A stretch of DNA of 64,000 nt from Patescibacteria group bacterium (GTDB taxonomy: Bacteria; Patescibacteriota; Patescibacteriia; UBA1558; UBA10009): positions 7,398 to 71,397 of the forward strand of contig JBAZSE010000004.1 of the NCBI GenBank assembly GCA_041662565.1. The letters are read 5' to 3'. Within the stretch, counting starts at the first letter, position 1; the number at the start of each line of letters is the position of its first letter. The translations under genes were made by a program, and so were the position numbers. The notes under the pieces were generated by a model. The model was not told the origin of the DNA. It saw only the letters and a list, made by a program, of their open reading frames with translations, and searched no databases. Shown here one piece after another: positions 22,029 through 59,128 of the stretch.

Positions 22029-22031
22029 AGA

Positions 22032-22718: not shown

Positions 22719-22723
22719 AAAAT

Positions 22724-30058: not shown

Positions 30059-30088
30059 TTGACACCTATTGACCTATTGGCATATAAT
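30059..30088 (+). promoter_or_regulatory. Consensus sigma70 promoter TTGACA-18-TATAAT ending 6 nt before the ATG of the HTH gene, implying a leaderless transcript
   Basis: Perfect -35 and -10 hexamers seen directly. No room for a Shine-Dalgarno sequence. Confidence 0.5.
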
Positions 30089-31411: not shown

Positions 31412-31415
31412 AATC

Positions 31416-34173: not shown

Positions 34174-34219
34174 AGCTAAAAATTAATTAGGCACTCTGTA
34201 ATTGGATTTATATAAACAT

Positions 34220-35648: not shown

Positions 35649-36650
35649 ATGAATCCAGAATTATTCAAAGATAAAACAGTTTTAATTACCGGCGGCACCG
35701 GTTCGTTCGGTAAAAACTACGCCCGTTTTTTGCTAAAAAATTCCGAGCTTAAAAAGCTGATTATTTTCAGCCGAGACGAGCTAAAGCAGTTTCACATGCA
35801 AAAAGAATTTAAGGATGAAAGAGTTAGATTTTTTATCGGCGACGTTAGGGATTTACCCAGATTGTTGCGCGCTTTTAACGGCGTGGATATCGTAGTTCAT
35901 GCCGCAGCTTTAAAGCAAGTTCCGGCTTTGGAATACAATCCTTTTGAAGCGGTTAAAACCAATATTTTAGGCAGCCAAAACGTGATTGATGCCGCGATAG
36001 ATCAAAACGTGGAAAAAGTATTATTGATTTCTACCGATAAAGCCGCTCAGCCCATAAACCTTTACGGTTCAACAAAATTGTGCGCCGAAAAATTATTTAT
36101 TAACGGTAATATGTATTCCGGCGGTAAAACAAAATTCGCTTGCGTTAGATACGGCAACGTTATTGGCAGCCGAGGCAGCATTGTTGATCATTTGATAAAT
36201 AATCCCGAACTGCCTAAAGTCCAAATTACCCATGAAAAAATGACCCGTTTTTGGATTACCTTGGAGCAGGCATTTGGCTTGGTTAACTTTGCCCTGGAAA
36301 ACATGGCGGGCGGAGAAATTTTTATTCCCAAAATTCCCAGCATGAACTTGGTTGATTTGTTCCAAGTACTGGCGCCTAAAGCGGAAAAAGAAATTATCGG
36401 AATTAGGCCGGGTGAAAAACTTCACGAAATGCTGTTAACCAACGAAGAAGCCAGGCACGCGCTGGAACTGGAAAATTATTACGTGGTGTTACCCGAATAC
36501 GAACAAATGTTTAATATTAAAGAAAGATACAAACATCATTTTGTTGTTGGCAAAAACCTGCCCGAAGATTTTAATTTTACCAGTAATAACAACCAAAGCT
36601 GGTTAACTTGCGAAAATCTTAATTTGATAATAGTAGACCTAAAAATATGA
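35649..36650 (+). CDS. pseB: UDP-N-acetylglucosamine 4,6-dehydratase (inverting), PseB/FlaA1-like
   Basis: KTVLITGGTGSFGKNY, IFSRDELKQ, RFFIGDVRD, STDKAAQPINLYGSTK. Confidence 0.75.
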   Translation: MNPELFKDKTVLITGGTGSFGKNYARFLLKNSELKKLIIFSRDELKQFHMQKEFKDERVRFFIGDVRDLPRLLRAFNGVDIVVHAAALKQVPALEYNPFEAVKTNILGSQNVIDAAIDQNVEKVLLISTDKAAQPINLYGSTKLCAEKLFINGNMYSGGKTKFACVRYGNVIGSRGSIVDHLINNPELPKVQITHEKMTRFWITLEQAFGLVNFALENMAGGEIFIPKIPSMNLVDLFQVLAPKAEKEIIGIRPGEKLHEMLLTNEEARHALELENYYVVLPEYEQMFNIKERYKHHFVVGKNLPEDFNFTSNNNQSWLTCENLNLIIVDLKI

Positions 36651-37756
36651 TTTCTTACGGATCGCAAAACATTGATCAAGCGGATATTAATGAAGTTATT
36701 AAAGTATTACGTTCCGCTAATTTAACCCAAGGCCCTAAAGTTAAAGAATTTGAAATAAAACTGGCCAAATACAGCGGAGTAAAATACGCGGTTGCCGTTT
36801 CCAATGGCACCGCTGCCCTATTTTTAGCTTATTTGGCGGCCGGATTAAAGCCAGGCGATGAAATAATCACCACGCCTAATTCCTTTGTGGCTACCACCAA
36901 TATGATGCTTGCTTTGGGCATTAAACCGGTTTTTGTTGATATTTCTTTGGCTACTTACAACATGGATGAGCGCAACATTATTAAAGCCCTAACCAAAAAA
37001 ACCAAAGCCATTGTGCCGGTGGATTTTGGAGGCCAAGCCGCTGATTTAAAAACTATCAATCTTTTGGCAAAAAAACATGGGCTTCTTATTATAGAAGATG
37101 CCAGCCATGCTCTAGGTGCCAAGCATTATGGCAAAAAAATCGGCCAGTGGGCGGATTTAACAATTTTTAGCTTTCATCCCGTTAAATCAATTACTACCGG
37201 CGAAGGCGGAGCCATTTTAACCAACAATAAAAATTTATACCAAAAATTGCTTTTATTAAGAAGCCATGGCATCCATAAAAATCAACAGGGCCGCAACGTG
37301 ATGACGGAACTTGGCTATAACTTTCGCTTAACCGATTTGCAATCGGCCTTAGGCAGTTCGCAATTAAAAAAAGTTGATTCTTTTATTAAAAAACGCCGAG
37401 AGGTTGTCAAATGGTATCAGGCGGAATTAAAAAATTTAAGCCAAATTATTTTACCGCAAGAAAAGCCGGAAAATTATTCCAGTTGGCACTTGTATGTTAT
37501 CAGGACAAAAAAAATATCAGATCGCGATATGTTGGGAAATTTTTTAACTAACAAAGGCATTGGCATTAATTATCATTATCCGGCTATTTACAAGCAACCC
37601 TACTATCAAAAAATCGGTTTTAAAAAAACAAATTTACTTAACGAAGAAATTTATCAATCCAGTTGCTTAACTCTCCCCTGCCACACTCTTTTAACCCAAA
37701 AAGATATAAAATACATTGCCGGGGAAATTAAAAAATTTTACCATAGCAAAAAATAA
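36647..37756 (+). CDS. pseC: DegT/DnrJ/EryC1-family aminotransferase, PseC-like
   Basis: N-terminus ISYGSQNIDQADINEV; PLP-lysine region SFHPVKSITTGEGG. ATG overlaps the pseB stop (ATGA). Confidence 0.7.
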   Translation: MISYGSQNIDQADINEVIKVLRSANLTQGPKVKEFEIKLAKYSGVKYAVAVSNGTAALFLAYLAAGLKPGDEIITTPNSFVATTNMMLALGIKPVFVDISLATYNMDERNIIKALTKKTKAIVPVDFGGQAADLKTINLLAKKHGLLIIEDASHALGAKHYGKKIGQWADLTIFSFHPVKSITTGEGGAILTNNKNLYQKLLLLRSHGIHKNQQGRNVMTELGYNFRLTDLQSALGSSQLKKVDSFIKKRREVVKWYQAELKNLSQIILPQEKPENYSSWHLYVIRTKKISDRDMLGNFLTNKGIGINYHYPAIYKQPYYQKIGFKKTNLLNEEIYQSSCLTLPCHTLLTQKDIKYIAGEIKKFYHSKK

Positions 37757-37765
37757 TCAAATTTT

Positions 37766-38839
37766 ATGCTAAACAATCAAAATTTTCCTCAACAAATTAA
37801 GATCGGCAACCGAACAATCGGCCTTAACGAACCAACCCTTTTTATTGCCGATATCGGAGCCAATTTTGACCGCGATTTAACCAAAGCCAAAAAACTGGCT
37901 TTAGCGGCCAAAGATGCCGGAGCTGATGTGGTTAAATTTCAAACATTTAAGGCCGACAAAATAGTTTCCGGCCCCAGCTTTGCCAAAATGCAATTAAAAG
38001 GCGTTCATGGCTCTTGGAACAAGCCAATCAATGAGGTTTTTGCCGCAGCGGAGTTCCCTCGCGAATGGCATAAGGAATTAATGGATTATTGCCACGAAAT
38101 TGGAGTAATGTTCAATTCCTCACCATATGATTTTGAAGCGGTAGATTTATTGGAAGAATTGAATGTGGAATTTTATAAAATAGGTTCCGGTGAAATTACC
38201 TGGCATGAAATGCTCCAATACATTGCTAAAAAAAATAAACCCATGATTTTGGCCACAGGAGACAGCACCTTGGCGGAAGTAGATGAAGCAATAAGCGTGA
38301 TTGAAAAAACCGGCAACCGCAATTTAATTTTATTGCAATGCATTACCAATTATCCTTCCAAAATAGAAAGCGCCAATATTAATGTGCTTAAAACCTATCA
38401 AACCGCTTACAATATTTTAACCGGCTATTCTGATCACACACCCGGCGACATTGTTATCTTAGGTTCTATTGCCTTAGGCGGCCGTGTGGTTGAAAAACAC
38501 TTTACTTTAAATAAGAAGGATGCCGGACCAGACCATCCTCATTCCATGGAACCGGCTGAATTTAAATTAATGGTGGATCGGGCCAGATTGTTAGAAAAAG
38601 CTCTAGGTAGTACGCGTAAAGAAGTAGTGGAAGAAGAAACCGAAACCGTGATTGTCCAAAGAAGATCTTTGCATGTAACTAGGGATATGGCAGCCGGCGA
38701 AATAATTAAGGCAGAGGATATAATTGAACTTAGGCCGGCCGTAGGCATTTTGCCCAAATTTAAAAACTTGGTAGTTGGTCATAAGATTAAAAACAATTTA
38801 TTAAAGCATGAGGCCCTAACTTGGGAGAATTTGGAATAA
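37766..38839 (+). CDS. pseI: Nonulosonic acid synthase (NeuB/PseI family) with a C-terminal SAF domain
   Basis: FIADIGANFDRDLTKAKKLALAAKDAGADVVKFQTF (TIM-barrel NeuB) plus a C-terminal antifreeze-like SAF domain. Confidence 0.75.
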   Translation: MLNNQNFPQQIKIGNRTIGLNEPTLFIADIGANFDRDLTKAKKLALAAKDAGADVVKFQTFKADKIVSGPSFAKMQLKGVHGSWNKPINEVFAAAEFPREWHKELMDYCHEIGVMFNSSPYDFEAVDLLEELNVEFYKIGSGEITWHEMLQYIAKKNKPMILATGDSTLAEVDEAISVIEKTGNRNLILLQCITNYPSKIESANINVLKTYQTAYNILTGYSDHTPGDIVILGSIALGGRVVEKHFTLNKKDAGPDHPHSMEPAEFKLMVDRARLLEKALGSTRKEVVEEETETVIVQRRSLHVTRDMAAGEIIKAEDIIELRPAVGILPKFKNLVVGHKIKNNLLKHEALTWENLE

Positions 38840-38908
38840 GTGGACGCGTTCGCATCGGCTTGAAAAAATTATTAATTCAGCGGATTAAAAAAGATTATAG
38901 ACGCACTT

Positions 38909-39556
38909 ATGAATTATTTAGAAGCAAAAAAAATAATGGGAGCTAATTTTATCGGCCCCGAAGAACTGAATAAAATAAAAAAACCCATGGGCCTTAAAAA
39001 TCCTTTAATGGCAAAAATTCCAGCTATTCCTTTTACAAGCCAACTTTTAAATAAAATAAAGCGCGATTACCTTCTTATATTAGGTATGCCAAAAAACTCC
39101 GCAAACAAGCCCTTAACCATCAATGAATTAAGAAAAACTTTCGGTTATGATCCAAAAAACTTTCAACCTTGTTTTTACAACCAAGATTGGTATTTAAAAG
39201 AAAAATTTGCCTCTTATGTCACTTTAGCTAATCAATGGTATTTAATCAAAAAAACAATTTCTCCTAATACCTTGGGCAAGCAACCAAAAGATTTACTAAA
39301 AACATTAAACAATAATATTTCCTTGCCTTCGGCAATTTTAACAGCTTACGCTTTTTTTGCCTTTTATTTTTTAAACAACGGAAAAAAACTTTGGGTTAAC
39401 AATTTTATTTGGTGTAATGATACGGATCATAATGGCGATCAAATCTATGTTGGCAGATACTGCGATCCGAAAAAAATCAATAAAAACGGTTTTAATATCC
39501 ATCGTTATTTAACCATTAATAAAATTTACGGCTTAGCCCCGATTATTACCAAATAA
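38909..39556 (+). CDS. Hypothetical protein inside the nonulosonic acid cassette
   Basis: 215 aa, ATG start, tight spacing to neighbours. No motif recognised. Confidence 0.3.
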   Translation: MNYLEAKKIMGANFIGPEELNKIKKPMGLKNPLMAKIPAIPFTSQLLNKIKRDYLLILGMPKNSANKPLTINELRKTFGYDPKNFQPCFYNQDWYLKEKFASYVTLANQWYLIKKTISPNTLGKQPKDLLKTLNNNISLPSAILTAYAFFAFYFLNNGKKLWVNNFIWCNDTDHNGDQIYVGRYCDPKKINKNGFNIHRYLTINKIYGLAPIITK

Positions 39557-39557
39557 T

Positions 39558-40322
39558 ATGATTACCGCCATAATCCAAGCCAGAACCAGTTCTAGCCGCT
39601 TACCGGGCAAAGTTTTGTTAAAATTAAACGGCCAAACTGTTTTAGAACAGGTGGTTCGCAGAGTTAAAAAAAGCAAACTTATTAAGGATGTTATTATTGC
39701 TACTACTACCGATAAATCCGATAATAAAATCGTTAAACTTTGCAAAAATAAAAAAATCAAATTTTTTAGGGGCGATATGAACAATGTGCTGGACCGTTAT
39801 TACCAAACCGCCAAAAAATTCAACTTAAAACATATTTGCCGGGTTACTTCGGATTGCCCTTTAATCGATCCTGATGTTATAGATTTGGTAGCCAAAAAAT
39901 ACTTAAAAACGCGCGCCCAGTATGCTTCCAGCTCTCGGCCAAAACCAACTTATCCCGATGGCCTGGATACGGAAATTTTCAGTTTTAAGGCCTTAACCAG
40001 GGCCTGGCAAGAAGCCCAACTTCTTTCGGAAAAAGAACACGTTACTCCTTACATTTGGAAAAACCCAAAAAAATTCAAATCAGTCATGGTAAAAAATAAA
40101 AAAGATCTTTCCGCTTTGCGCTGGACCTTGGACGAAAAAATTGATTTTGTTTTAATCAAGGAAATTTATCGCAAACTTGGGAAAAATAATAAAATTTTCC
40201 TTATGGCTGATATTTTAAACTTGCTAAAAAAACGGCCCGAACTTTCTACGATGAATACTTCAATTAAAAGAAATGCCGGCTATTTTAAATCTTTAAAAGA
40301 AGATAAACGAATATCCAAATAA
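39558..40322 (+). CDS. Acylneuraminate cytidylyltransferase-family protein (SpsF/PseF-like, CTP_transf_3)
   Basis: MITAIIQARTSSSRLPGKVLLKLNGQTVL. Confidence 0.65.
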   Translation: MITAIIQARTSSSRLPGKVLLKLNGQTVLEQVVRRVKKSKLIKDVIIATTTDKSDNKIVKLCKNKKIKFFRGDMNNVLDRYYQTAKKFNLKHICRVTSDCPLIDPDVIDLVAKKYLKTRAQYASSSRPKPTYPDGLDTEIFSFKALTRAWQEAQLLSEKEHVTPYIWKNPKKFKSVMVKNKKDLSALRWTLDEKIDFVLIKEIYRKLGKNNKIFLMADILNLLKKRPELSTMNTSIKRNAGYFKSLKEDKRISK

Positions 40323-40327
40323 TATTT

Positions 40328-41641: not shown

Positions 41642-41644
41642 TTT

Positions 41645-42901
41645 ATGATGAATCTATTAAAAAAAATCTGGCATTTGCCCAGGCATATTGTTTCCGATGG
41701 CTATGACGAGGCCTTGCGTGAAATTAACAAAATTATTCCTTTAAAAATACATTCCGTGGCCAGCGGAACAAAATGTTGGACCTGGATCGTGCCTAAAAAA
41801 TGGTCTATTAAGGAAGGCTACATTAAAAATTTAAAGGGACAAAAAATTGTGGATTTTTCCGATCATCCTTTAAGAGTCCACTCTTACTCCTTACCTATTG
41901 ATAAAACGGTTTCCAAAAAAGAATTGCTTAATCATATCTGGACAAATCCAAAAAGACCTAACGCCATTCCTTTCCAATTCAAATACTACGAGCAGGATTG
42001 GGGTTTTTGCTTGGAACACAATCGCCTTAAAAAATTAACCGATGATCAGTACAAAGTTAAAATTGATTCAAAATTGGAAAACAGCTTTTTAAAAATCGGC
42101 GAACACATCATTAAGGGCGAAGTTGAAGAAACAGTGGTAATTTTGGCCCATCTTTGCCATCCTGGCATGGCCAATGATGACGCAGCCGGCGTAGCGGTTT
42201 TAGTGGATTTGGCTAAAGAACTTAACAAAACCAAAAATCACTACACCTACAAATTTATTTTAATGCCCGAAACTATTGGTTCAATTGCCTGGTTATCGCA
42301 AAATGAAAATTTGATCCCCAAAATGCGTTATGGAATTTTTTTGGAGATGCTGGGAGGTAAAAACACTTTGGCTTTGCAATACAGCCGCCAAGGGAACACC
42401 CAATTGGATAAAATTGCCAAACAAATTTTTCAGGAAAGCCGCAAAAAATACCGAGAAGGCGCTTTTTCGGAAATCGTGGTTAATGATGAAATGGTTTTTA
42501 ACGGACCGGGCGTTAATGTGCCAACAATTTCCATTAGTCGTTATCCATATCCCGAATACCATACCAGCGACGATACCATTAAAATCATTACGGATAAGCA
42601 ACTAACTGAAGCCAAAAATATTGTTCTTAAAATAATCAATAGATTGGATCAAAATTATTGGCCCAAAAGAACTTTTAAAGGCCCTGTCTTTTTATCCGGT
42701 TACGGCCTTTGGGTGGATTGGAAAACAAATTTTCAGCTTAATAAAAATTTGGAGCAACTACTTTTGAATTTGGAAGGAAACCAAAGCATTGTAGAAATTG
42801 CGCAAAAATTGGGCATGAGTTTTAATGAAACCCATGATTATATAAATAAATTTGCCGATAAAAAATTAATCATTAAACAATATCTAGATGAGCATAATTA
42901 A
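41645..42901 (+). CDS. Aminopeptidase-like (M28/DUF4910-type) protein with a C-terminal winged-helix-like segment
   Basis: HLCHPGMANDDAAGVAVLVDLA resembles M28 metal-binding region; C-terminus QSIVEIAQKLGMSFNETHDYINKF. Confidence 0.4.
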   Translation: MMNLLKKIWHLPRHIVSDGYDEALREINKIIPLKIHSVASGTKCWTWIVPKKWSIKEGYIKNLKGQKIVDFSDHPLRVHSYSLPIDKTVSKKELLNHIWTNPKRPNAIPFQFKYYEQDWGFCLEHNRLKKLTDDQYKVKIDSKLENSFLKIGEHIIKGEVEETVVILAHLCHPGMANDDAAGVAVLVDLAKELNKTKNHYTYKFILMPETIGSIAWLSQNENLIPKMRYGIFLEMLGGKNTLALQYSRQGNTQLDKIAKQIFQESRKKYREGAFSEIVVNDEMVFNGPGVNVPTISISRYPYPEYHTSDDTIKIITDKQLTEAKNIVLKIINRLDQNYWPKRTFKGPVFLSGYGLWVDWKTNFQLNKNLEQLLLNLEGNQSIVEIAQKLGMSFNETHDYINKFADKKLIIKQYLDEHN

Positions 42902-43775
42902 CCAATACTCTTCCGACAAGGAAAGAGTCAGACAGTATTATAATCAGGAATCATCCGTTTACATGGATTTTTACAAAAAAACCTGGGACGAATATCCCGA
43001 GCAAGCCATTCGCTTGAATTTTATCGTTAAAATCCTAAAACAGAAAAAAATAAATAATATTTTTGATGTTGGCTGTGGCACCGGCGGACCAATGATTAAA
43101 ATGCTGAATAATAAAATTAAAGCCGAAGGCGGAGATTTTGCGGAAAAAATGGTTAGTGAAGGCAAAAAAGAATTGCTTAAGGCCGGTTATAATCCCAAAC
43201 TTATTTCGCCAATCGATCTGGAAGATAAAAAAACTTTGCCCAAGAAAAAATACAACTCCGTTTTGGCTTTGGGCGTTTTTCCCCATATACTTAATCAAAA
43301 AACGGGTTTAAAAAATATCAATTTTTTGCTCAAAAAAAACGGTTCGGCTTTTATTTCTTTTCGCAATGATTTATTCGCCCTTTCTACCTTAAACGAATAC
43401 TCATTGGATCTGTTTTTAAATCGCATGTTTAACATTAAGGTTTTTCCTAAAAAAATCCAACAAGAAGTATTAAAATTCTATGCTGATCGCTTAAAAACCA
43501 CAGTATCCATTAAAAAAGAAAACGGTGCAGTTAAATATACCAGTATCATGGCCAGGTTCCATAATCCCCTAACTTTGGAAGAAGAACTGTTTAAACCCTG
43601 CGGTTTTGCCATTACCAAGATCCATTTTTACCATTACCACGCTTTACCCACATTTTTCCAAAAAAAATACAAAAAAATCTACGATAGAGAGAGCTTAAAA
43701 TTGGAAAAAACCAATGACTGGAAAGGTAATTTTTTGGCCTCGGCATTTGTGGTTGAAGCCAAAAAAATCAAATAA
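42888..43775 (+). CDS. Class I SAM-dependent methyltransferase
   Basis: Motif I IFDVGCGTGGP. Confidence 0.55.
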   Translation: MSIINQYSSDKERVRQYYNQESSVYMDFYKKTWDEYPEQAIRLNFIVKILKQKKINNIFDVGCGTGGPMIKMLNNKIKAEGGDFAEKMVSEGKKELLKAGYNPKLISPIDLEDKKTLPKKKYNSVLALGVFPHILNQKTGLKNINFLLKKNGSAFISFRNDLFALSTLNEYSLDLFLNRMFNIKVFPKKIQQEVLKFYADRLKTTVSIKKENGAVKYTSIMARFHNPLTLEEELFKPCGFAITKIHFYHYHALPTFFQKKYKKIYDRESLKLEKTNDWKGNFLASAFVVEAKKIK

Positions 43776-43778
43776 ATT

Positions 43779-44396
43779 ATGAACAAAACCGATAAAATTA
43801 TCGATATTTTAGGCGGAAGTTTGATACAGGATAATAATGGCCGCTGGCGCACCACTAATTTTAACGAGGGTGATAATTTTGGTGCTTTAGGCGATCGTTT
43901 AAGGGTACTGGCAGCCAGCTATCTTTATCAACACAACTCTAAATCATATTTTTTAGCTTCCGGCGGTAAAGGACAGCTTAAAGCCATTAAAAGCGCACCT
44001 TTTATTTCTACAGTGGTTAAAAAAGAACTAGTGGCGTTGGGCGTGCCAACAAGCCACATTGCCACGGAAAATAATTCCAATACCACCTATGAACAGCTTT
44101 TGGAGTTGGATAAATACGTTAAAAACCATAAAATCCGAGAGGTGGAAATTATTTCCAATGAGCATCATTTGCCCCGCATCAAATACATGATCAAAACAAG
44201 TCCAAAACTTTTGGATTTAAGAAAACTTAAATTACTCAAACTGCTTTCTGCCGAAAAAATCTGTTTACAAAACGAACCCCGCAAGTGGCGTTCGGAAATT
44301 ACCAAAGCTTACAAAAGCGAAGCTATGAAAATCAGAATCAAGGTTGAACAGCAAGGCATAAACGATTTAAAAAACGGAAAATATAAATTTTCATAA
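43779..44396 (+). CDS. DUF218 (YdcF/SanA-like) protein
   Basis: YFLASGGKGQ...GVP...TENNSNTTYEQ pattern. Confidence 0.35.
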   Translation: MNKTDKIIDILGGSLIQDNNGRWRTTNFNEGDNFGALGDRLRVLAASYLYQHNSKSYFLASGGKGQLKAIKSAPFISTVVKKELVALGVPTSHIATENNSNTTYEQLLELDKYVKNHKIREVEIISNEHHLPRIKYMIKTSPKLLDLRKLKLLKLLSAEKICLQNEPRKWRSEITKAYKSEAMKIRIKVEQQGINDLKNGKYKFS

Positions 44397-44401
44397 AATT
44401 T

Positions 44402-45466
44402 ATGGATAAAATCAAAATTAAAACACCTCAAGGAATCAGATTGATCGGTCCAGGCGAATCGGCTTTTATTATCGCCGAAATGTCAGGCAATCATAATCAA
44501 TCATACCAAAACTGCCTTAAAATAATCGATGCCGCATTATCAGCCGGAGCCGATGCCATTAAATTACAAACTTACACCGCCGACACCTTAACTATCAACT
44601 GCGTTAACCGTTACTTTCAAATTACCAAACAAAAAAATTGGTCCGGCCAAACTTTATATGATTTATACAAAAAGGCCTATACTCCCTGGGATTGGCAGGC
44701 AAAATTAAAAAACTACGCCGAAAAAAAAGGCCTATTTTTCTTTTCTACGCCTTTTGACAAAACCGCGGTAGATTTTTTAGAAAAAATGAAAGTCCAAATT
44801 TATAAAATTGCCTCTTTTGAAATTGGCGATTTTCCTCTTTTAAAAAGAGTCGGCCAAACTAAAAAACCAGTAATTATTTCACGAGGCATGGCTACAGCCA
44901 AAGAAGTTGACTACGCCTTAAAAACTTTAAAAAAATATGGTTGCCCTCAGGTGGCGATTTTGCATTGCGTAAGTGCTTATCCCGCTCGTTCTGAAGAGAT
45001 GAATTTATTAACTATTCCCGATCTGACAAAAAAATTTAAAGTAATAACCGGTTTATCCGACCATAGCTTAGGCATTACCGCGGCTATTACCAGTATTGCC
45101 CTGGGAGCTAAAATCATTGAAAAACATTTAACTTTAAAACATTCAGACGGCGGTCCAGATGCGGCTTTTTCTTTGGAACCTCAAGAATTCAAAGATATGG
45201 TAGAGGGAGTCAGATTGGCCGAAAAATCCTTAGGACAACCATTTTACAACAAAACTGCCGGCGAAAAAAATAGCATAATCTTTAAAAAATCCCTTTTTAT
45301 CGTTAAAGATATTAAAAAAGGTGAAAAAATTACGGAAAAAAATATGCGTTCAATTAGGCCCGGCTATGGTTTGCCGCCAAAAAATTACGAACTAGTCCTG
45401 GGTAAAAAAATAAAAAATCATTACCCGGCTGGCACACCTCTTTCTTGGTCTAAACTAAATAAATAA
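44402..45466 (+). CDS. Second nonulosonic acid synthase paralogue (NeuB/PseI family) with SAF domain
   Basis: GESAFIIAEMSGNHNQSYQNCLKIIDAALSAGADAIKLQTY; C-terminal SAF domain. Clearly paralogous to 37766-38839. Confidence 0.75.
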   Translation: MDKIKIKTPQGIRLIGPGESAFIIAEMSGNHNQSYQNCLKIIDAALSAGADAIKLQTYTADTLTINCVNRYFQITKQKNWSGQTLYDLYKKAYTPWDWQAKLKNYAEKKGLFFFSTPFDKTAVDFLEKMKVQIYKIASFEIGDFPLLKRVGQTKKPVIISRGMATAKEVDYALKTLKKYGCPQVAILHCVSAYPARSEEMNLLTIPDLTKKFKVITGLSDHSLGITAAITSIALGAKIIEKHLTLKHSDGGPDAAFSLEPQEFKDMVEGVRLAEKSLGQPFYNKTAGEKNSIIFKKSLFIVKDIKKGEKITEKNMRSIRPGYGLPPKNYELVLGKKIKNHYPAGTPLSWSKLNK

Positions 45467-45472
45467 CTCATT

Positions 45473-46132
45473 ATGAAAATAAATCTTGTTATTGATAACC
45501 CCAACAGTTGGTTTAATGCACCGGCCGTGAAATTAAAAAAAAGTCTTACCAGCATGGGTAATATTTGTCTGATTGTGAATGATCCGCGAAAAATCAAACC
45601 TAAGAGCGATATTACTTTTTTCTTGAGCTGTGAACAATACATTACCCCAAAAACAAGAAATAAAAGCCTTCACAATATTGTAGTTCATGCCAGCAATCTG
45701 CCTAAAGGCAAAGGTATGTCGCCTACGACCTGGCAAATTTTAGAAGGGGAAAATACCATCCCCCTGACCTTATTTGAAGTAGCGGATAAAATTGATGCAG
45801 GTGATTATTATCTTAAAGCCAGTTTTAGGCTTAATGGAAGCGAATTAATCGCCGAATGGCAAGAAAAACTGGCTCAGAATATTTTTCAATTGATTTTTAA
45901 ATTTGTTAAAAATTTTAAAAAACTGCCAGCGAAAAAACAAACAGAAAAAACAACTTATTATCCTCGCCGCACCATTTCGGATAGCGCCTTGGATCCACAT
46001 AAAACAATTGCTGAACAATTTAATCTGTTAAGAGTAGTAGATAATGAAAAATATCCGGCTTATTTTATTTTCAAAAAAAATAAGTACATTATTAAAATCT
46101 ATAAGGATCAAAAAAAATGGATGAATTCTTAA
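45473..46132 (+). CDS. Formyltransferase-family protein (Fmt N-terminal-domain-like)
   Basis: NIVVHASNLPKGKGMSPTTWQILEGENTIPLTLFEVADKIDAGDYY resembles the folate-dependent formyltransferase core (HxSLLPxxRG-like). Confidence 0.5.
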   Translation: MKINLVIDNPNSWFNAPAVKLKKSLTSMGNICLIVNDPRKIKPKSDITFFLSCEQYITPKTRNKSLHNIVVHASNLPKGKGMSPTTWQILEGENTIPLTLFEVADKIDAGDYYLKASFRLNGSELIAEWQEKLAQNIFQLIFKFVKNFKKLPAKKQTEKTTYYPRRTISDSALDPHKTIAEQFNLLRVVDNEKYPAYFIFKKNKYIIKIYKDQKKWMNS

Positions 46133-47661
46133 AAAACAATCGCGAATTTTTGGCCAAATATCCCCTTTTAACCGGAGGGAAAAAACTTTTGGTTGAAGAA
46201 ATGAATCTGCCGATGATTGTTCATATGAATGCCTTATTTGCTTTGATTTTAAACCAAGCCAAAGGGTTTTATCCAATTTGGCTTAATAACCAAAAATACG
46301 ATGACGCCTTGATCAAATCGTATTTTCCGGATAGCGAACCTTTAAAAAAATCCACTTTTTCTTTTTTATTAAAGATATACGCCTCACTGATAGCTCTGGC
46401 AAAATTTCCCCAAATACTGGTAACAGGCAATATTGTAAATTTTTATTTTGATAAAATCAAATACGGAGATATTGTTTACGATAACTACCTTTATACCTAT
46501 CACGTTTCCACCATCAAAAAAATCAATTGGCGGATTATTAAAGTGATGGCTATTTGTATTTTTAGGCATTTAAGGATAAAAACTGTGTTAAAATCGGGTA
46601 ACTTTGCCGGCGTGCTGGTTTCGCACCAGGTAGGCATCCGTAGCGGCGTTTTACTTCGAGTGGCCTTAAGATACGGCTATCACGGGTATTTCCGTTTTGG
46701 CACTGTTTTATGCGACTATAAAAAATTGGCAGAAATCTACGATTACCCCTTAAAACCTACTTCCGACGAAATTGATCAGATTATTGAAAAGCTGGGATCA
46801 GCTAAGCTGGAAACGGTTTTTCAGGAAGTACTTGCTAAACATATTTCGGGACTTAGCACCAAAGACGGTTTGCACGCTTTTGCTCCAAGCAGCAAGCTTT
46901 ACAGCGAAAAACAAAAATTCAACGCCGATTTCGGCTTGCCTAAAGAGCAAAAAAATATTTTTATCATGCTCCACGCTTTTATTGATAGCCCTCATTCGCA
47001 TTTTAAATGGATGATCTTCAAGGATTATTACGATTGGTTTTATCAAACCTTGCAATTTGCCAAAAAACATCCGCAAATGAACTGGATTTTTAAACAGCAT
47101 CCTTCGGCCAAATATTACCAAACCAACGACGTGGATTTTAATCTTCTTTTCTCCAATGCGCCCAAAAATATCGTTTACCTAGCCGACGACAATCAGCTGG
47201 ACACCCGCAGTTTGATTGCTTGCGCCGATTTGGTGGTAACCTGCTTGGGTTCGGCGGGTTTTGAAATACCGGCCATGGGCGGCGTACCTTCAATTACCGC
47301 GGCCGATAATTTTTACACCGGCCTAGGTTTTGCTCTGGAACCCACCAATCAAACGGAATACTTTAATATTTTAAGCCGAGCTGATAAAATAAAACCGCTC
47401 TCGGAAACAGCGCGAAATCGAGCCAAAGCGACTTTTATTTATATCCGGGAATACGCTATGTACGACATTTCCGCTTATCCCAAGCTGACTTTTGCCGAAG
47501 AAAAGGATAAAAACATAAATAATTGGTACTGGTCAAGAATCAGCCAAGCTTATTTGTCTAAAAAAGATTCAATTTATAAGGAAATCGATCATTGCATTAA
47601 TGAAGTTAAAAAACCGAATTTTAAAAAGTTGACCAGCTTGGAAGAATTATTTAACAAATAA
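46117..47661 (+). CDS. Hypothetical; C-terminal half resembles Capsule_synth/TagF-like GT-B transferases (paralogous in architecture to 34220-35647)
   Basis: IFIMLHAFIDSPHSH...IFKQHPSAKYY...LGSAGFEIPAMGGVP. Confidence 0.3.
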   Translation: MDEFLKNNREFLAKYPLLTGGKKLLVEEMNLPMIVHMNALFALILNQAKGFYPIWLNNQKYDDALIKSYFPDSEPLKKSTFSFLLKIYASLIALAKFPQILVTGNIVNFYFDKIKYGDIVYDNYLYTYHVSTIKKINWRIIKVMAICIFRHLRIKTVLKSGNFAGVLVSHQVGIRSGVLLRVALRYGYHGYFRFGTVLCDYKKLAEIYDYPLKPTSDEIDQIIEKLGSAKLETVFQEVLAKHISGLSTKDGLHAFAPSSKLYSEKQKFNADFGLPKEQKNIFIMLHAFIDSPHSHFKWMIFKDYYDWFYQTLQFAKKHPQMNWIFKQHPSAKYYQTNDVDFNLLFSNAPKNIVYLADDNQLDTRSLIACADLVVTCLGSAGFEIPAMGGVPSITAADNFYTGLGFALEPTNQTEYFNILSRADKIKPLSETARNRAKATFIYIREYAMYDISAYPKLTFAEEKDKNINNWYWSRISQAYLSKKDSIYKEIDHCINEVKKPNFKKLTSLEELFNK

Positions 47662-47663
47662 AT

Positions 47664-48506
47664 ATGCTCAAACTTAAACAAATAATCAAAAAATTTATCC
47701 CGCCTATTATTACCGAATTTTACCACGTGCGTTGTAAAAAGTACGGTTTCTTTGGGAATTATCCAAATTGGCAATCGGCTTTGGCAGATTCCACAGGCTA
47801 TAATTTGCCTTTAATTTTAGAAAAGGTTAAGCAGGCTCGTTTAAAAGTGTTACGCGGTGAAGCGGTTTACGAACGCGACTCGGTTAACTTTGACAAAATA
47901 AAGCATTCCTGGCCGATGGTTGCCGCATTACTCTGGATTGCCGGTCAAAACAATAATCGCCTAAATGTTTTGGATTTTGGCGGCTCTTTGGGCACCTCCT
48001 ATTTTCAAAATTTGCCCTTTATCAAACATTTGCCAGAAATTAACTGGAACATAGTTGAACAGCAAAATTTTGTTAAAATCGGGAAAGAACTTTTTTCAAA
48101 AAACGAGTCGCTTAAATTTTATCCGACTATTGAAAGTTGTTTGTTTGAACAAAAGCCGATGGTGGTTATTTTATCAGGCGTATGGCAATATCTAGAAAAA
48201 CCCTACGATATGCTGGAAAAAATTATATCTCTAAAAATAGATTACTTGCTATTTGACCGGACCACTTTTATTGCTGCTGGAGCGGACCGTTTAACAATCC
48301 AAAAGGTGCCGCCGCGCATTTATGAGGCCAGCTACCCTGCTTGGTTTTTTAATTTGGAAAAATTTACCGATTTTTTTGCAGGCCGATACGAAATTATCGC
48401 CGATTTTGCCTCACTTAACAAATATTACCAACCCGGCGATTACCTTGATTTGGGCGACACAGTTGCCTGCGAAAAAGGTTTTCTTTTAAAAAAGCAGAGC
48501 TTATGA
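47664..48506 (+). CDS. Hypothetical protein, possibly a divergent methyltransferase
   Basis: LDFGGSLGTSY could be a degenerate motif I. Weak. Confidence 0.3.
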   Translation: MLKLKQIIKKFIPPIITEFYHVRCKKYGFFGNYPNWQSALADSTGYNLPLILEKVKQARLKVLRGEAVYERDSVNFDKIKHSWPMVAALLWIAGQNNNRLNVLDFGGSLGTSYFQNLPFIKHLPEINWNIVEQQNFVKIGKELFSKNESLKFYPTIESCLFEQKPMVVILSGVWQYLEKPYDMLEKIISLKIDYLLFDRTTFIAAGADRLTIQKVPPRIYEASYPAWFFNLEKFTDFFAGRYEIIADFASLNKYYQPGDYLDLGDTVACEKGFLLKKQSL

Positions 48507-49480
48507 AATACAATTTTTGCACTTTATTTAATTCCCATTACCTAATTAGGGGGTTAGCCATGTACCAATCGTTAAAAGAGCATTTGGATGATTTTTGCTT
48601 ATACGTCTTCCCTTTTGACGATGAATGTTTAAAGATCTTGAAAGAATTAAACTTGCCTAATATAGTAGTAGTTTCATTGCAAGAGTTTGAAGATGAAGAG
48701 CTGTTAAAAATTAAAAATACTCGTAGCCCCATGGAATATTGTTGGACCTGTTCTTCCAATAGCACCTGGTATACTTTAAAAAAATATAATTTGGAGAGCA
48801 TTACTTACATTGACGCTGATTTGTATTTTTACAGCTCCCCGGAGCCAATTTTTAACGAATTGGGAAATGATTCCATTTTAATCACCGAACACCGTTTTTC
48901 CCGCGATAAAGATAAGGCGGCTTTGGCCGGAAAATATTGTGTCCAATTTATGACTTTTAAAAACAATCCTGACGGCTGGCGTGCCTTGGACTGGTGGCGC
49001 ACTGCCTGTTTAAATTGGTGTTATGCCAAATATGAAGATAATAAATTTGGCGATCAAAAATATTTAGACGATTGGATGACGAGATTTTCAGGTGTTCATG
49101 AACTGCAACACTTGGGAGGTGGAGTGGCCATTTGGAACATTAACAATTATAATATTAGTATGGAATCCGGAAGTTTGCAGGTTATTGAAAAAAGTTCGGC
49201 AAAAAAATTTCCATTGATTTTTTATCATTTTCACAGCGTTAAATTGTTTCGCCTAGGTAACCGTATAATAGGAGAAAGCACCCAGCCGATTATTCACAAT
49301 GTCCAAAAATTAATTTACAATAGTTATACTAGGGGTTTAACTCAAGCATTTGACGTGGTTAAAACAGTGAGGCCTGATTTTTCTTTAGGCCTAAGCCCCA
49401 ACTTAATTTATTACAGAAAAAAACTTGGTAAATTTTTACCAACCAAAATAAAAAGTTTTTTTAAAAAAGTTATTACCTAA
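48503..49480 (+). CDS. Hypothetical protein with a DxD-like motif (possible GT-A-type transferase)
   Basis: YIDADLYF. Weak. Confidence 0.3.
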   Translation: MKYNFCTLFNSHYLIRGLAMYQSLKEHLDDFCLYVFPFDDECLKILKELNLPNIVVVSLQEFEDEELLKIKNTRSPMEYCWTCSSNSTWYTLKKYNLESITYIDADLYFYSSPEPIFNELGNDSILITEHRFSRDKDKAALAGKYCVQFMTFKNNPDGWRALDWWRTACLNWCYAKYEDNKFGDQKYLDDWMTRFSGVHELQHLGGGVAIWNINNYNISMESGSLQVIEKSSAKKFPLIFYHFHSVKLFRLGNRIIGESTQPIIHNVQKLIYNSYTRGLTQAFDVVKTVRPDFSLGLSPNLIYYRKKLGKFLPTKIKSFFKKVIT

Positions 49481-49484: not shown

Positions 49485-49910
49485 ATGATTAAAAAAACCA
49501 GAATTAAAAATACCAGCATTGCCAAGTTCCAATTTTTTAACGATTTTCCGGATGGCAATTTGGTTATTATTGAAGAAGGTAAAAACATCCCTTTTCCAAT
49601 TAAACGGGTTTATTTCATTAATAACCTATTTAATCCCAAGGCCTTGCGAGGCATGCATGCGCATAAAAAACTGGAACAGGTGTTGTTTTGCGTTAACGGC
49701 TCGTTTGTCTTAACTTTGGATGACGGCACCCACAGCCAAAAAATCACGGTCAATGATCCTTACTACGGGATTAAAATCGGGCCAAAGGTTTGGCGCGTGA
49801 TGAACAAGTTTTCCAAGGACTGTGTGATTTTGGTTTTAGCCAGCCAGCTTTTTAAAAAATCAGATTACATTAGAAATTACGAAGAATTCATCAAATATGT
49901 CAAAAAATAA
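49485..49910 (+). CDS. WxcM-like cupin: dTDP-4-keto-6-deoxyhexose 3,4-ketoisomerase (FdtA family)
   Basis: VYFINNLFNPKALRGMHAHKKLEQVLFCVNGSF is the FdtA/WxcM signature. Confidence 0.75.
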   Translation: MIKKTRIKNTSIAKFQFFNDFPDGNLVIIEEGKNIPFPIKRVYFINNLFNPKALRGMHAHKKLEQVLFCVNGSFVLTLDDGTHSQKITVNDPYYGIKIGPKVWRVMNKFSKDCVILVLASQLFKKSDYIRNYEEFIKYVKK

Positions 49911-58913: not shown

Positions 58914-58923
58914 AGATAGATGA

Positions 58924-59077: not shown

Positions 59078-59128
59078 GAATCAAAAAATATAAAATTATC
59101 AATTCAAAATATTAAACATTTATAACCT

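What the first reader, a model, noticed from the sequence alone, without database searches (positions are those of the whole stretch)
35649..49480. Non-canonical nonulosonic acid cassette with two NeuB/PseI synthases, a formyltransferase, a class III aminotransferase and a peptidase-like protein, and no PseG/PseH
PseB (35649), PseC (36647), a NeuB-family synthase (37766) and an SpsF/PseF-type cytidylyltransferase (39558) define a pseudaminic/legionaminic-type pathway. The usual UDP-sugar hydrolase (PseG) and N-acetyltransferase (PseH) are not recognisable. In their place the cassette carries, in order:
- a class III (GSA-aminomutase-like) aminotransferase (40328);
- an M28/DUF4910 aminopeptidase-like protein with a winged-helix tail (41645);
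- two methyltransferases (42888, and possibly 47664);
- a DUF218 protein (43779);
- a second full-length NeuB/SAF synthase (44402);
- a folate-type formyltransferase (45473);
- two Capsule_synth/TagF-like putative transferases (34220, 46117).
This points to a modified nine-carbon sugar, for example N-formyl, N-methyl or amidino derivatives, or to two different nonulosonic acids made side by side. That would be unusual for a reduced-genome, CPR-like organism.
Basis: partly seen in the sequence, partly recalled or inferred. Interest (0 to 1): 0.6.

Follow-up and report, generated by a model that had tools for sequence, protein, structure and literature searches.

The report
Composite nine-carbon sugar-acid gene cluster
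A CPR bacterium carries a 20-gene surface-sugar operon in which a widespread but uncharacterised nine-carbon sugar-acid pathway, lacking two of the textbook enzymes, has gained a second, conventional pseudaminic-acid synthase.

Summary
The gene calls are confirmed. PseB, PseC and the second NeuB (as PseI) pass NCBIfam equivalog cut-offs. The first NeuB ("NeuB1") passes neither the PseI nor the NeuB cut-off. No PseG, PseH or PseF is detectable by HMM anywhere in the 64 kb.

The cassette is a composite.
That protein has no Pfam domain and an FGE/C-type-lectin-like fold.
- The clade is also linked to a DUF218 protein, an SpsF-like cytidylyltransferase, a true PseB, and a class III or non-PseC DegT aminotransferase.
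- PseI plus the formyltransferase-like gene form a clean 1.7-kb two-gene indel. It is absent from two sister contigs with otherwise identical gene order, and from 16/16 other fully flanked NeuB1 loci.

"Two nonulosonic acids side by side" is therefore the best-supported reading, but products and unknown steps are inferred. "Unusual for CPR" is not supported, because named NeuB1 and hyp215 homologues are almost all from CPR lineages. The DUF4910 association was published in 2014, formyl-for-acetyl (PseJ) is known, and KpsS-type Pse transferases are known. I rate it a new variant of a known kind, of moderate interest.

The parts
30059..30088 (+). Candidate operon promoter (TTGACA-18-TATAAT)
   Evidence: 12/12 consensus match in the only sizeable intergenic gap upstream of the 20-gene array. 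This is a pattern match only; the total number of promoter-like sites in the region is not above the shuffled expectation.
30347..31411 (+). GDP-mannose 4,6-dehydratase (Gmd)
   Evidence: TIGR01472 570 bits > 415.
31404..33206 (+). ABC exporter (fused TMD-NBD, MsbA/PglK/HepA-like); probable glycan or lipid-linked glycan exporter
   Evidence: ABC_membrane + ABC_tran; below all equivalog cut-offs. A homologue at 46-47% identity sits in the NeuB1 loci L083 and L091.
33217..34173 (+). GDP-L-fucose synthase-like (Fcl)
   Evidence: NF047922 472 bits, just under the 500 cut-off.
34202..35647 (+). Capsule_synth-like (KpsS/KpsC-related) putative CMP-nonulosonate transferase
   Evidence: PF05159 32.8 > 20, plus a weak BFO_1060 hit. 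A 45-46% homologue lies directly upstream of PseB in the CPR NeuB1 loci L084-L087. KpsS1 (GT118) is a characterised Pse transferase (PMC12887879).
35649..36650 (+). PseB, inverting UDP-GlcNAc 4,6-dehydratase; shared first step
   Evidence: TIGR03589 451 > 408. It is 66-67% identical to the PseB-equivalog dehydratases of NeuB1 loci that lack PseC and PseI.
36647..37756 (+). PseC aminotransferase
   Evidence: TIGR03588 442 > 423.5. A 73% orthologue, fused to an SDR domain, sits upstream of NeuB1 in sister contig L171.
37766..38839 (+). NeuB1: NeuB-family synthase of a distinct, uncharacterised clade
   Evidence: NeuB + SAF domains, below the PseI and NeuB cut-offs. About equally distant from CjPseI, SpsE and NmNeuB. 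Clade signature IA(D/E)xGxNF where others have NH; the KxQ, KIxS, SDH and EKH motifs are intact. 34% identical to the window's PseI.
38909..39556 (+). hyp215: uncharacterised protein strictly linked to NeuB1; FGE-sulfatase/C-type-lectin-like fold
39558..40322 (+). SpsF-like cytidylyltransferase; presumed CMP-nonulosonate synthetase and the only one in the window
   Evidence: CTP_transf_3 118 bits; PseF model 25 bits against a 206 cut-off. Present in 16/16 fully flanked NeuB1 loci. B. subtilis SpsF has genetic support as the CMP-Leg step (PMC7439481).
40328..41641 (+). Class III (GSA-aminomutase-like) aminotransferase
   Evidence: Aminotran_3. PRK06209 254 bits against 486. PDB: GSA aminomutases 149 bits, aminoglycoside C-6' aminotransferase 116 bits. 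In NeuB1 loci it alternates or co-occurs with a non-PseC DegT enzyme (AT3 9/16, DegT 8/16, either 14/16).
41645..42901 (+). DUF4910/DUF2172/M28-like protein (CA_C2195 family, PDB 3k9t)
   Evidence: Highly conserved (57-63% identity to homologues from other lineages). Neighbourhood with spsE/spsF-type genes published in PMC4000134. Accessory to the NeuB1 core (3/16 loci).
42888..43775 (+). Class I SAM methyltransferase, travels with DUF4910
   Evidence: Homologues at 45-51% identity occur in DUF4910 loci L007, L010, L021, L027 and L072, adjacent to DUF4910 in the two mapped (L007, L021).
43779..44396 (+). DUF218 protein (subtype associated with DUF4910)
   Evidence: PF02698 45 > 27.6. 43-44% identical to the DUF218 genes next to DUF4910 in L004 and L014, but only about 20% to the DUF218 that sits between NeuB1 and hyp215 in most loci. 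Conserved E-G-D, S-G-G and H..R motifs.
44402..45466 (+). PseI, pseudaminic acid synthase; first gene of the two-gene indel
   Evidence: TIGR03586 463 > 340. 277 bits to C. jejuni PseI 8h2c. Absent between DUF218 and hyp513 in sister contigs L168 and L170. No PseI-type gene in 16/16 other NeuB1 loci.
45473..46132 (+). Short formyltransferase-fold protein (1ZGH-like); second gene of the indel
   Evidence: Formyl_trans_N 27.5 against 26.1. PDB: 1zgh E 1e-12, ArnA 6e-10, PseJ 0.03. H72 and the Asp of 'IDAGD' align with ArnA H104 and D140, but the Asn102 position is Val70. Related genes recur in NulO loci, often next to DUF4910.
46117..47661 (+). hyp514: distant Capsule_synth-like putative second nonulosonate transferase
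   Evidence: No direct Pfam hit; pairwise comparison with 34202 not significant. Iterative profiles of the two converge on one family. 69-71% orthologues in L168 and L170, and 49% in L086 after AT3.
47664..48506 (+). TIGR04325 (LIC12133-type) methyltransferase
   Evidence: 205 bits > 80. 63% orthologue in L170.
48503..49480 (+). hyp325: probable GT-A (GT8-like) glycosyltransferase
   Evidence: Weak Glyco_transf_8 hit (E 0.014) and a DxD-type 'YIDADLYF' motif. Orthologues only in the sister contigs. No sequence similarity to PseG-type families.
49485..49910 (+). FdtA-type 3,4-ketoisomerase (separate 3-amino-3,6-dideoxyhexose branch)
   Evidence: PF05523 149 bits.
49897..51000 (+). DegT-family aminotransferase, partner of FdtA, not PseC
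   Evidence: DegT 393 bits; PseC model 263 < 423.5.

Best explanation
The region is one long surface-glycan operon (30347-51000) in a Patescibacteria genome. It combines three layers.

1. A conserved 'NeuB1 core': PseB, an aminotransferase, NeuB1, hyp215, a DUF218 protein and an SpsF-like cytidylyltransferase. I infer that this core converts UDP-GlcNAc, via the PseB 4-keto-6-deoxy intermediate and a 4-amino sugar, into a CMP-activated 5,7-diamino-type nonulosonic acid (NulO) that differs from canonical Pse5Ac7Ac. In this scheme DUF218 and hyp215 supply the steps that PseG (UDP release) and PseH (N-acylation) perform in the textbook pathway.

2. A tailoring sub-module that also travels with PseI-type synthases elsewhere: class III aminotransferase, DUF4910, methyltransferase and DUF218.

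3. A lineage-specific two-gene addition: a bona fide PseI plus a short formyltransferase-fold protein. Together with PseB and PseC, and sharing the core's UDP-release step and its single cytidylyltransferase, this pair would make a second NulO, a Pse derivative that may be N7-formylated.

Two distantly related Capsule_synth/KpsS-like proteins would then transfer the CMP-sugars to a glycan that also contains fucose and a 3-amino-3,6-dideoxyhexose. The ABC transporter would export it.

Shown: family memberships, synteny and linkage, the indel, intact synthase motifs, and the hyp215 fold. Inferred: all substrates and products, the roles of DUF218, hyp215, DUF4910 and AT3, and formyl transfer.
For: - Equivalog-level calls for PseB, PseC and PseI; NeuB1 fails both synthase models, and so does its orthologue in L108.
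- NeuB1 and PseI are 34% identical, and both keep the KxQ, KIxS, SDH and EKH motifs. The clade-specific NF-for-NH substitution in the N-terminal active-site motif argues for a different substrate or product.
- Linkage: hyp215 lies within 4 kb in 34/35 loci. In 16 fully flanked loci, hyp215, DUF218 and SpsF are each present in 16, PseB in 13, an aminotransferase in 14, and a PseI-type gene in 0.
- The dehydratase in core loci without PseC or PseI is a true PseB equivalog (462-531 bits); the DegT partner is neither PseC nor LegC.
- No PseG-type or GNAT family is among the 25 most frequent Pfam families in the flanks of 12 core loci, and none is in the window.
- hyp215 has a confident FGE/C-type-lectin-like fold and invariant Cys/Asp/His/Arg residues. 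DUF218 lies directly upstream of hyp215 in 36/44 loci, and one DUF218-hyp215 fusion exists.
- Indel: sister contigs L168 and L170 share the order AT3, DUF4910, MT, DUF218, hyp513, MT, hyp325, FdtA, DegT at 57-83% protein identity, with no PseI or formyltransferase-like gene.
- Precedents: PseJ formyltransferase for Pse5Ac7Fo (PMC11040635; PDB 6ci2); KpsS1/GT118 Pse transferase (PMC12887879); SpsF as the CMP-Leg step (PMC7439481).
Against: - Only one cytidylyltransferase is present for two proposed CMP-sugars, and it is not a PseF equivalog.
- No enzyme has been shown to release UDP or to N-acylate. FGE-like folds are not known hydrolases or acyltransferases, and DUF218 has no known activity.
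- The window's DUF218 is only about 20% identical to the NeuB1-adjacent type.
- The formyltransferase-like protein lacks the canonical catalytic Asn and has a shortened N-terminal subdomain.
- PseC is present next to NeuB1 in a sister contig (L171), whose short 5.3-kb contig contains no PseI gene. PseC may therefore feed NeuB1 rather than define a separate Pse branch.
- The rest of the 367,922-bp contig and of the genome was not available, so PseG, PseH or PseF could be encoded elsewhere.
- The direction of the indel (gain or loss) rests on parsimony alone.
Confidence: 0.5

Rival explanations
1. There is one sugar, not two. The NeuB1 core is an alternative, PseG/PseH-independent route to ordinary pseudaminic acid or a simple N-variant of it. 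The inserted PseI is a redundant isozyme, and the formyltransferase-like protein only changes the N7 substituent.
For: - The core starts with a true PseB.
- In this sub-lineage a true PseC sits directly upstream of NeuB1, in the window and in L171.
- There is only one cytidylyltransferase.
- NeuB1's best PDB hit is C. jejuni PseI.
Against: - NeuB1 and its orthologue fall below the PseI cut-off (301-302 against 340) and score equally well against the NeuB model.
- The clade carries an NF-for-NH active-site signature.
- In most core loci the aminotransferase is not PseC, being a class III enzyme or a DegT scoring 195 against 423.
- Keeping a 34%-identical second synthase in a reduced genome, together with two Capsule_synth-like transferases, fits two products better.
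Confidence: 0.22
2. There is one heavily tailored NulO. All the genes serve a single pathway in which AT3, DUF4910, the methyltransferases and the formyltransferase-fold protein build an unusual N-acyl substituent, for example an aminoacyl or N-methyl-aminoacyl group. One of the two synthases acts on a different aldose or has a non-synthase role.
For: - AT3, DUF4910, the methyltransferase and DUF218 recur together with PseI-type synthases in Planctomycetes and Saccharibacteria loci (L004, L005, L007).
- Formyltransferase-fold genes sit next to DUF4910 in L005, L059, L093 and L021.
- PMC4000134 proposed a transacylation-type role for DUF4910.
- AT3's relatives act on aldehydes and amino-acid semialdehydes.
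Against: - DUF4910 (3/16) and AT3 (9/16) are dispensable accessories of the NeuB1 core.
- Both synthases keep all catalytic motifs.
- The PseI plus formyltransferase pair behaves as a separate indel.
- No ATP-grasp or ligase that could attach an amino acid is present in the window.
Confidence: 0.2
3. The cassette is an assembly or binning chimera that joins two unrelated NulO loci.
For: The source is a metagenome-assembled genome. PseI and the formyltransferase-like gene have slightly lower GC3 (0.31-0.33) than their neighbours.
Against: - The same gene order, including the indel, is found in an independently assembled 39-kb contig from a different run, and the protein occurs on contigs of up to 367,922 bp.
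- The junctions are tight operon junctions (+5, +6 and -16 nt), with the flanking genes intact.
Confidence: 0.02

Closest known systems
CMP-pseudaminic acid pathway (PseB, PseC, PseH, PseG, PseI, PseF) of Helicobacter and Campylobacter
   Same: Equivalog-level PseB, PseC and PseI are present. The overall logic is the same: UDP-GlcNAc, then a 4-keto-6-deoxy sugar, then a 4-amino sugar, then condensation with PEP, then CMP activation.
   Different: No PseG, PseH or PseF is detectable. The cytidylyltransferase is SpsF-type. A second synthase from a different clade is present, with its own conserved partners hyp215 and DUF218.
PseJ route to Pse5Ac7Fo (Anoxybacillus kamchatkensis; PDB 6ci2/6ci4)
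   Same: A formyltransferase-fold enzyme sits in a Pse locus that lacks a PseH-type acetyltransferase.
   Different: Similarity to PseJ is only marginal (E 0.03). The closest relative is the uncharacterised 1ZGH protein. The canonical Asn of the Asn-His-Asp triad is replaced by Val. Activity is untested.
DUF4910/CA_C2195 conserved neighbourhood (PMC4000134, 2014)
   Same: A DUF4910 + DUF2172 + M28-like protein is embedded among spsE (NeuB-like), spsF, epimerase/dehydratase, methyltransferase and glycosyltransferase genes.
   Different: That study did not separate the NeuB1/hyp215/DUF218 core from the DUF4910 sub-module. Here DUF4910 turns out to be an accessory, present in 3/16 core loci.
Bacillus subtilis sps legionaminic acid pathway (SpsM, C, D, G, E, F)
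   Same: It uses UDP-linked precursors, an SpsE-type NeuB-family synthase and an SpsF-type cytidylyltransferase.
   Different: The sps pathway has a GNAT (SpsD) and a PseG-like protein (SpsG). [quoted passage not shown] The core here starts from a PseB equivalog, annotated as the inverting enzyme, and lacks SpsD- and SpsG-type genes.
KpsS1 (GT118) and KpsS/KpsC (GT107) ulosonic-acid transferases
   Same: The ORF at 34202 matches Pfam Capsule_synth, and 46117 joins the same family through iterative profiles. Both sit in a NulO operon, as KpsS1 does in Acinetobacter Pse-containing K loci.
   Different: Both are very divergent. No catalytic residues were checked, and donor and acceptor are unknown.
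Legionella pneumophila serogroup 6/12 O-antigen locus (PMC3694923)
   Same: It contains an adjacent class III 'GSA aminomutase-like' aminotransferase and 'acylneuraminate cytidylyltransferase' pair, together with DegT, CapD and Capsule_synth genes.
   Different: The Legionella locus retains PseG and acetyltransferases. No hyp215 is reported there.

Membership tests
Canonical CMP-pseudaminic acid pathway | PseB: inverting UDP-GlcNAc 4,6-dehydratase | tested here: met
   TIGR03589 451 bits > 407.75.
Canonical CMP-pseudaminic acid pathway | PseC aminotransferase | tested here: met
   TIGR03588 442 bits > 423.5.
Canonical CMP-pseudaminic acid pathway | PseH: GNAT N-acetyltransferase | tested here: not met
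   No GNAT or PseH hit among the window ORFs of at least 120 aa scanned with Pfam; NCBIfam was run only on the operon ORFs. The rest of the genome was not available.
Canonical CMP-pseudaminic acid pathway | PseG: GT-B UDP-sugar hydrolase | tested here: not met
   No Glyco_tran_28_C or PseG hit in the window (same calls). hyp215 has an FGE-like fold, not GT-B. hyp325 is GT8-like. hyp514 is Capsule_synth-like.
Canonical CMP-pseudaminic acid pathway | PseI synthase | tested here: met
   ORF 44402: TIGR03586 463 > 340. ORF 37766 does not meet it (301 < 340).
Canonical CMP-pseudaminic acid pathway | PseF: CMP-Pse synthetase | tested here: not met
   TIGR03584 25 bits against a 205.7 cut-off for the only CTP_transf_3 protein, 39558.
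NeuB-family nonulosonate synthases | NeuB TIM-barrel domain plus C-terminal SAF domain, with the two metal-binding His motifs (SDH, EKH) and the KxQ and KIxS motifs | tested here: met
   Both 37766 and 44402.
Sugar N-formyltransferases (PseJ, ArnA, WlaRD type) | Formyl_trans_N fold | tested here: met
   Pfam 27.5 against 26.1; PDB 1zgh E 1e-12, ArnA 6e-10.
Sugar N-formyltransferases (PseJ, ArnA, WlaRD type) | Catalytic Asn-His-Asp triad (N-x-H...D) | tested here: not met
   His72 and the Asp of 'IDAGD' align with ArnA H104 and D140, but the residue at the Asn102 position is Val70. The same holds in 1ZGH and in L157.
DUF4910 / CA_C2195 family | DUF4910 + DUF2172 + M28-like architecture within a sugar-modification operon | tested here: met
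   PF16254 265 bits, PF09940 122 bits, PF04389 49 bits. Neighbourhood confirmed and matches PMC4000134.
Capsule_synth (KpsS/KpsC/KpsS1-like) ulosonate transferases | Match to the family profile | tested here: inconclusive
   34202 passes Pfam (32.8 > 20). 46117 has no direct hit and joins only through iterative HMMs. Catalytic Asp and Glu were not examined.
FGE-sulfatase / C-type-lectin-like fold (for hyp215) | Structural similarity to the FGE, EgtB C-domain and PvdO fold; sequence match to the family; FGE-type catalytic Cys pair | tested here: inconclusive

The most novel reading that the evidence does not exclude
The NeuB1, DUF218, hyp215 and SpsF core would be an undescribed, PseG- and PseH-independent route from the PseB intermediate to a nonulosonic acid whose stereochemistry or N-substitution differs from Pse, Leg and the other assigned isomers. 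It would be widespread in CPR bacteria and would also occur in DPANN archaea. In this reading hyp215 is a new enzyme family with an FGE/C-type-lectin-like fold that works together with DUF218, which would give DUF218 its first biochemical function. This organism would then display two different NulOs on its surface.
Probability: 0.3. Interest if true: 0.7.

Novelty: new variant of a known kind. Interest (0 to 1): 0.5.

Why it matters
Nonulosonic acids decorate bacterial surfaces, flagella and capsules, and they shape recognition by hosts and phages. CPR bacteria live attached to host cells, so their surface glycans are probably central to that lifestyle, yet nothing on nonulosonic acids in CPR turned up in the paper library I searched.

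This locus points to a conserved gene set for these sugars that is common in CPR genomes and lacks two textbook enzymes. In their place it contains two universally linked proteins of unknown function: hyp215, which has no named family, and DUF218. That gives a concrete, testable entry point for three things: assigning a function to DUF218, assigning a function to a new FGE-like family, and possibly finding a new nonulosonic-acid isomer.

It also shows that 'Pse-like' annotations in metagenomes conflate at least two synthase clades that have different partner genes.

Tried and rejected
- **Hidden PseG/PseH among the hypotheticals.** Single-sequence and profile searches against PDB sequences for hyp215, hyp325, hyp514 and DUF218 gave nothing useful. 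Relaxed Pfam thresholds gave only a weak GT8 hit for hyp325.
- **Single-sequence AF2 of DUF218** failed (pLDDT 35), so no fold search was attempted on it.
- **hyp514 against the 34202 ORF by pairwise BLASTP** was not significant. The link rests on iterative profiles only.
- **Idea that the long formyltransferase-like proteins elsewhere are PseG fusions.** Rejected: two of them (L148, L155) are NeuD/PglB/VioB acetyltransferase fusions and the others showed no PseG hit.
- **Cluster-member lookup for organism names of hyp215 relatives** returned no taxonomy.
- **Literature searches** for nonulosonic or pseudaminic acid together with Patescibacteria, CPR or DUF218 found nothing relevant.
- **Recent duplication of the two NeuB genes.** Rejected: they are 34% identical and belong to different clades.
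- **Assembly chimera.** Rejected: the arrangement is reproduced in an independent assembly.
- **DUF4910 as the anchor for the whole cassette.** This was misleading: 0 of 80 DUF4910 genome loci contained hyp215 or a NeuB1-clade gene. Anchoring on NeuB1 was what revealed the core.

Full report
**Observation**

The region lies in a 20-gene, co-directional, tightly packed array (30347-51000; intergenic gaps of -16 to +69 nt). This array sits inside a larger surface-glycan island that also holds a priming Bac_transf, a Wzy_C/TPR protein, several GT1/GT2/GT4 glycosyltransferases, UDP-glucose dehydrogenase and polysaccharide deacetylases. A perfect TTGACA-18-TATAAT match sits in the gap upstream of the first gene.

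- PseB (451 > 408), PseC (442 > 423.5) and the second NeuB as PseI (463 > 340) pass their equivalog cut-offs.
- The first NeuB-family gene, here called NeuB1 (37766), has NeuB + SAF domains but fails both the NeuB (313 < 400) and PseI (301 < 340) models.
- The only cytidylyltransferase is SpsF/KdsB-like; the PseF model gives 25 bits against a cut-off of 206.
- The class III aminotransferase, DUF4910/DUF2172/M28, DUF218, two methyltransferases (one in TIGR04325) and a Capsule_synth-like protein are all present.
- None of the window ORFs of at least 120 aa that I scanned matches a PseG-type (Glyco_tran_28_C), PseH-type (GNAT) or second CTP_transf_3 family.

The window comes from a Patescibacteria MAG. 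An independently assembled 39-kb contig has the same gene order as far as it reaches, so the arrangement is real.

Between NeuB1 and the cytidylyltransferase lies a 215-aa ORF (38909-39556) with no Pfam, NCBIfam or PDB sequence match. It has at least 1,261 homologues in the 90%-clustered protein collection. All are 'hypothetical', and the named ones are nearly all from Patescibacteria lineages. At 50% clustering there are 1,115 representatives.

**The NeuB1 core**

NeuB1 has over a hundred homologues at 66-82% identity; the named ones come from CPR lineages plus one Woesearchaeota archaeon. I fetched 80 metagenomic loci anchored on NeuB1 and several contigs encoding 75%-identical homologues, then scored co-occurrence.

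NeuB1-clade genes (at least 57% identity; 53 anchors) show this linkage:
- hyp215 lies within 4 kb in 34/35 loci that have enough downstream sequence.
- In the 16 loci with at least 5 kb on both sides, hyp215, a DUF218 protein and an SpsF-like cytidylyltransferase are each present in 16/16.
- In the same 16 loci, a PseB-like dehydratase is present in 13/16 and an aminotransferase in 14/16 (class III in 9, DegT-type in 8).
- DUF4910 is present in only 3/16, and a PseI-type second synthase in 0/16.
- DUF218 lies immediately upstream of hyp215 in 36/44 loci.
- One 424-aa protein is a DUF218-hyp215 fusion. It comes from a single short contig, so this is weak evidence.

In core loci that lack PseC and PseI, the dehydratase is still a true PseB equivalog (462 and 531 bits against 408). 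The DegT partner there is neither PseC (195 against 423) nor LegC (200 against 420), and the NeuB1 orthologue again fails both synthase models.

The clade has a signature: the N-terminal active-site motif reads IA(D/E)xGxNF, where nearly all other NeuB-family genes in the data (55 of 62 with the motif), including the window's PseI, have NH. The KxQ, KIxS, SDH and EKH motifs are retained.

A Pfam census of 99 flanking ORFs from 12 core loci lists, among its 25 most frequent families, GFO/IDH/MocA oxidoreductases, radical-SAM/B12 enzymes, methyltransferases and a few hexapeptide acyltransferases, but no PseG-type or GNAT family.

Conversely, 80 genome loci anchored on DUF4910 contain 39 NeuB-family genes but no NeuB1-clade gene and no hyp215.

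**The PseI plus formyltransferase-like pair is an indel**

Two sister contigs (L168 and L170; DUF4910 80-82% identical) have the window's gene order: AT3, DUF4910, methyltransferase, DUF218 (73% in L170), hyp513 (69-71%), TIGR04325-type methyltransferase (63%, seen in L170), hyp325-like (57-65%), FdtA (83% in L170), DegT (64% in L170), GT1. In both, DUF218 is followed directly by hyp513.

In the window, PseI and the formyltransferase-like gene occupy exactly that junction (about 44397-46116), with operon-tight spacing. Other sister contigs show PseC (73%, fused to an SDR domain), NeuB1 (80-85%), hyp215 and SpsF upstream.

NeuB1 and PseI are 34% identical, so they are ancient paralogues and not a recent duplication. 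Parsimony (0/16 other core loci have a PseI-type gene) favours gain in this lineage.

**The formyltransferase-like protein**

It matches Formyl_trans_N marginally. Among PDB sequences it matches 1ZGH (E 1e-12), ArnA (6e-10), other sugar N-formyltransferases and, weakly, PseJ (0.03).

Aligned to ArnA, His104 and Asp140 are conserved (H72, and the Asp in 'IDAGD'). The Asn102 position is Val70, as it is in 1ZGH and in a short homologue in L157. Formyl transfer is therefore an inference.

PseJ is a published precedent for formyl replacing the PseH acetyl group to give Pse5Ac7Fo (PMC11040635). Formyltransferase-fold genes recur in these loci and lie next to DUF4910 in four of them. The two longest forms (L148, L155) are fusions to NeuD/PglB/VioB acetyltransferase domains, and none of the five long forms scanned gave a PseG hit.

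**Other components**

- hyp514 (46117) has no direct family hit, and its pairwise comparison with the Capsule_synth-like ORF at 34202 is not significant.
- KpsS1 (GT118, related to KpsS/KpsC) is a characterised Pse5Ac7Ac transferase (PMC12887879). Two NulO transferases are therefore plausible, which fits two donor sugars.
- hyp325 is probably a GT-A enzyme (weak GT8 hit and a DxD-type motif).
- AT3's nearest solved relatives are GSA aminomutases and aminoglycoside C-6' aminotransferases.
- DUF4910 is the CA_C2195 family. Its neighbourhood with spsE and spsF was described in 2014, along with a proposed non-peptidase, possibly transacylating, role (PMC4000134).
- AT3, the methyltransferase, DUF4910 and a DUF218 subtype also travel with PseI-type synthases in Planctomycetes and Saccharibacteria loci (L004, L005, L007).
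- The window's DUF218 belongs to that subtype: 43-44% identical to L004 and L014, but about 20% to the NeuB1-adjacent type.
- An adjacent AT3 and cytidylyltransferase pair also occurs in the Legionella serogroup 6/12 O-antigen locus (PMC3694923).
- SpsF-type enzymes have genetic support as CMP-NulO synthetases (PMC7439481).

**Interpretation**

The best-supported model (confidence about 0.5) is a composite locus with three parts:
1. A conserved NeuB1 core that is common in CPR genomes. It turns the PseB product into a CMP-activated NulO that differs from canonical Pse, and it uses DUF218 and hyp215 in place of PseG and PseH.
2. A DUF4910-centred tailoring sub-module.
3. A lineage-specific PseI plus formyltransferase-fold pair that, together with PseB and PseC, adds a second, Pse-type NulO.

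All substrates and products, and the roles of DUF218, hyp215, DUF4910 and AT3, are inferred. The main rivals are that the core is simply an alternative route to ordinary Pse with PseI redundant (about 0.2), or that all the genes build one heavily tailored NulO (about 0.2). An assembly chimera is excluded for practical purposes.

**Novelty and score**

NulO clusters with two synthases, formyl variants, KpsS-like transferases and DUF4910 neighbours are all known, so this is not categorically new. Three things appear not to have been described in the literature I could search:
- the discrete NeuB1 clade with its obligate hyp215, DUF218 and SpsF partners;
- the absence of PseG- and PseH-type genes from the window and from the common families in the flanks of 12 core loci;
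- its prevalence in CPR.

The claim that such a cassette is unusual for CPR is not supported. I rate it a new variant of a known kind, with interest 0.5.

**Limits**

- The rest of the genome was not searched.
- No reference-labelled NeuB phylogeny could be built.
- The DUF218 structure prediction failed, and AFDB was unavailable.
- No model coordinates were accessible for mapping the conserved hyp215 residues.

Noticed in passing
window 58110-60400: A PAPS_reduct-domain protein (CysD-like, 267 aa) is followed by an EF-Tu-family GTPase (CysN-like, 423 aa). This looks like a sulfate-activation pair at the edge of the glycan island, and it could mean sulfated surface glycans in a CPR bacterium.
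   Followed up: no
window 52895-53461 (- strand); L170 10755-11327: A 188-aa ORF contains only the C-terminal GT1 domain. The same short form (190 aa) is conserved in sister contig L170, so it is not an assembly truncation. It may be a split or degenerate glycosyltransferase.
   Followed up: partly
L084 14614-19629; L086 14667-17717: Related CPR NeuB1 loci carry two or three B12-binding radical-SAM enzymes. L084 also has a SPASM-domain protein and a GFO/IDH/MocA oxidoreductase in the same stretch. They lie between the cytidylyltransferase and AT3, which suggests C-methylated or otherwise heavily modified NulO variants in those lineages.
   Followed up: no
P0362 (424 aa; single 2.8-kb Logan contig): A DUF218 (residues 24-151) plus hyp215 (212-423) fusion protein. 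The two genes overlap in most loci, so a frameshift artefact cannot be excluded.
   Followed up: partly
L171 22-2722: The sister contig encodes a 672-aa PseC::SDR fusion (PseC part 73% identical to the window's) and an extra 234-aa CTP_transf_3 protein directly upstream of NeuB1. Some relatives therefore have two cytidylyltransferases.
   Followed up: partly
L148 5328-6719; L155 1148-2503: NeuD/PglB/VioB-type acetyltransferase domains are fused to formyltransferase domains within NulO loci. These look like bifunctional N-acylating enzymes.
   Followed up: no
window 19965-25033 (- strand): An S8 subtilase with an FG-GAP-like repeat (687 aa), a TPR protein and a 769-aa Wzy_C + TPR protein sit in the middle of the glycan island.
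   Followed up: no
window 49485-51000: An FdtA-type 3,4-ketoisomerase and its DegT aminotransferase (the 3-amino-3,6-dideoxyhexose branch) end the operon. No dTDP-glucose synthase or 4,6-dehydratase lies within the operon; candidate SDRs are elsewhere in the window at 15495, 17702 and 53440.
   Followed up: no
window 38840-38908: This 69-nt gap between NeuB1 and hyp215 is the largest in the operon. It lies exactly where most other loci carry the NeuB1-adjacent DUF218 gene. In this sub-lineage DUF218 is instead a divergent copy 5.4 kb downstream.
   Followed up: partly
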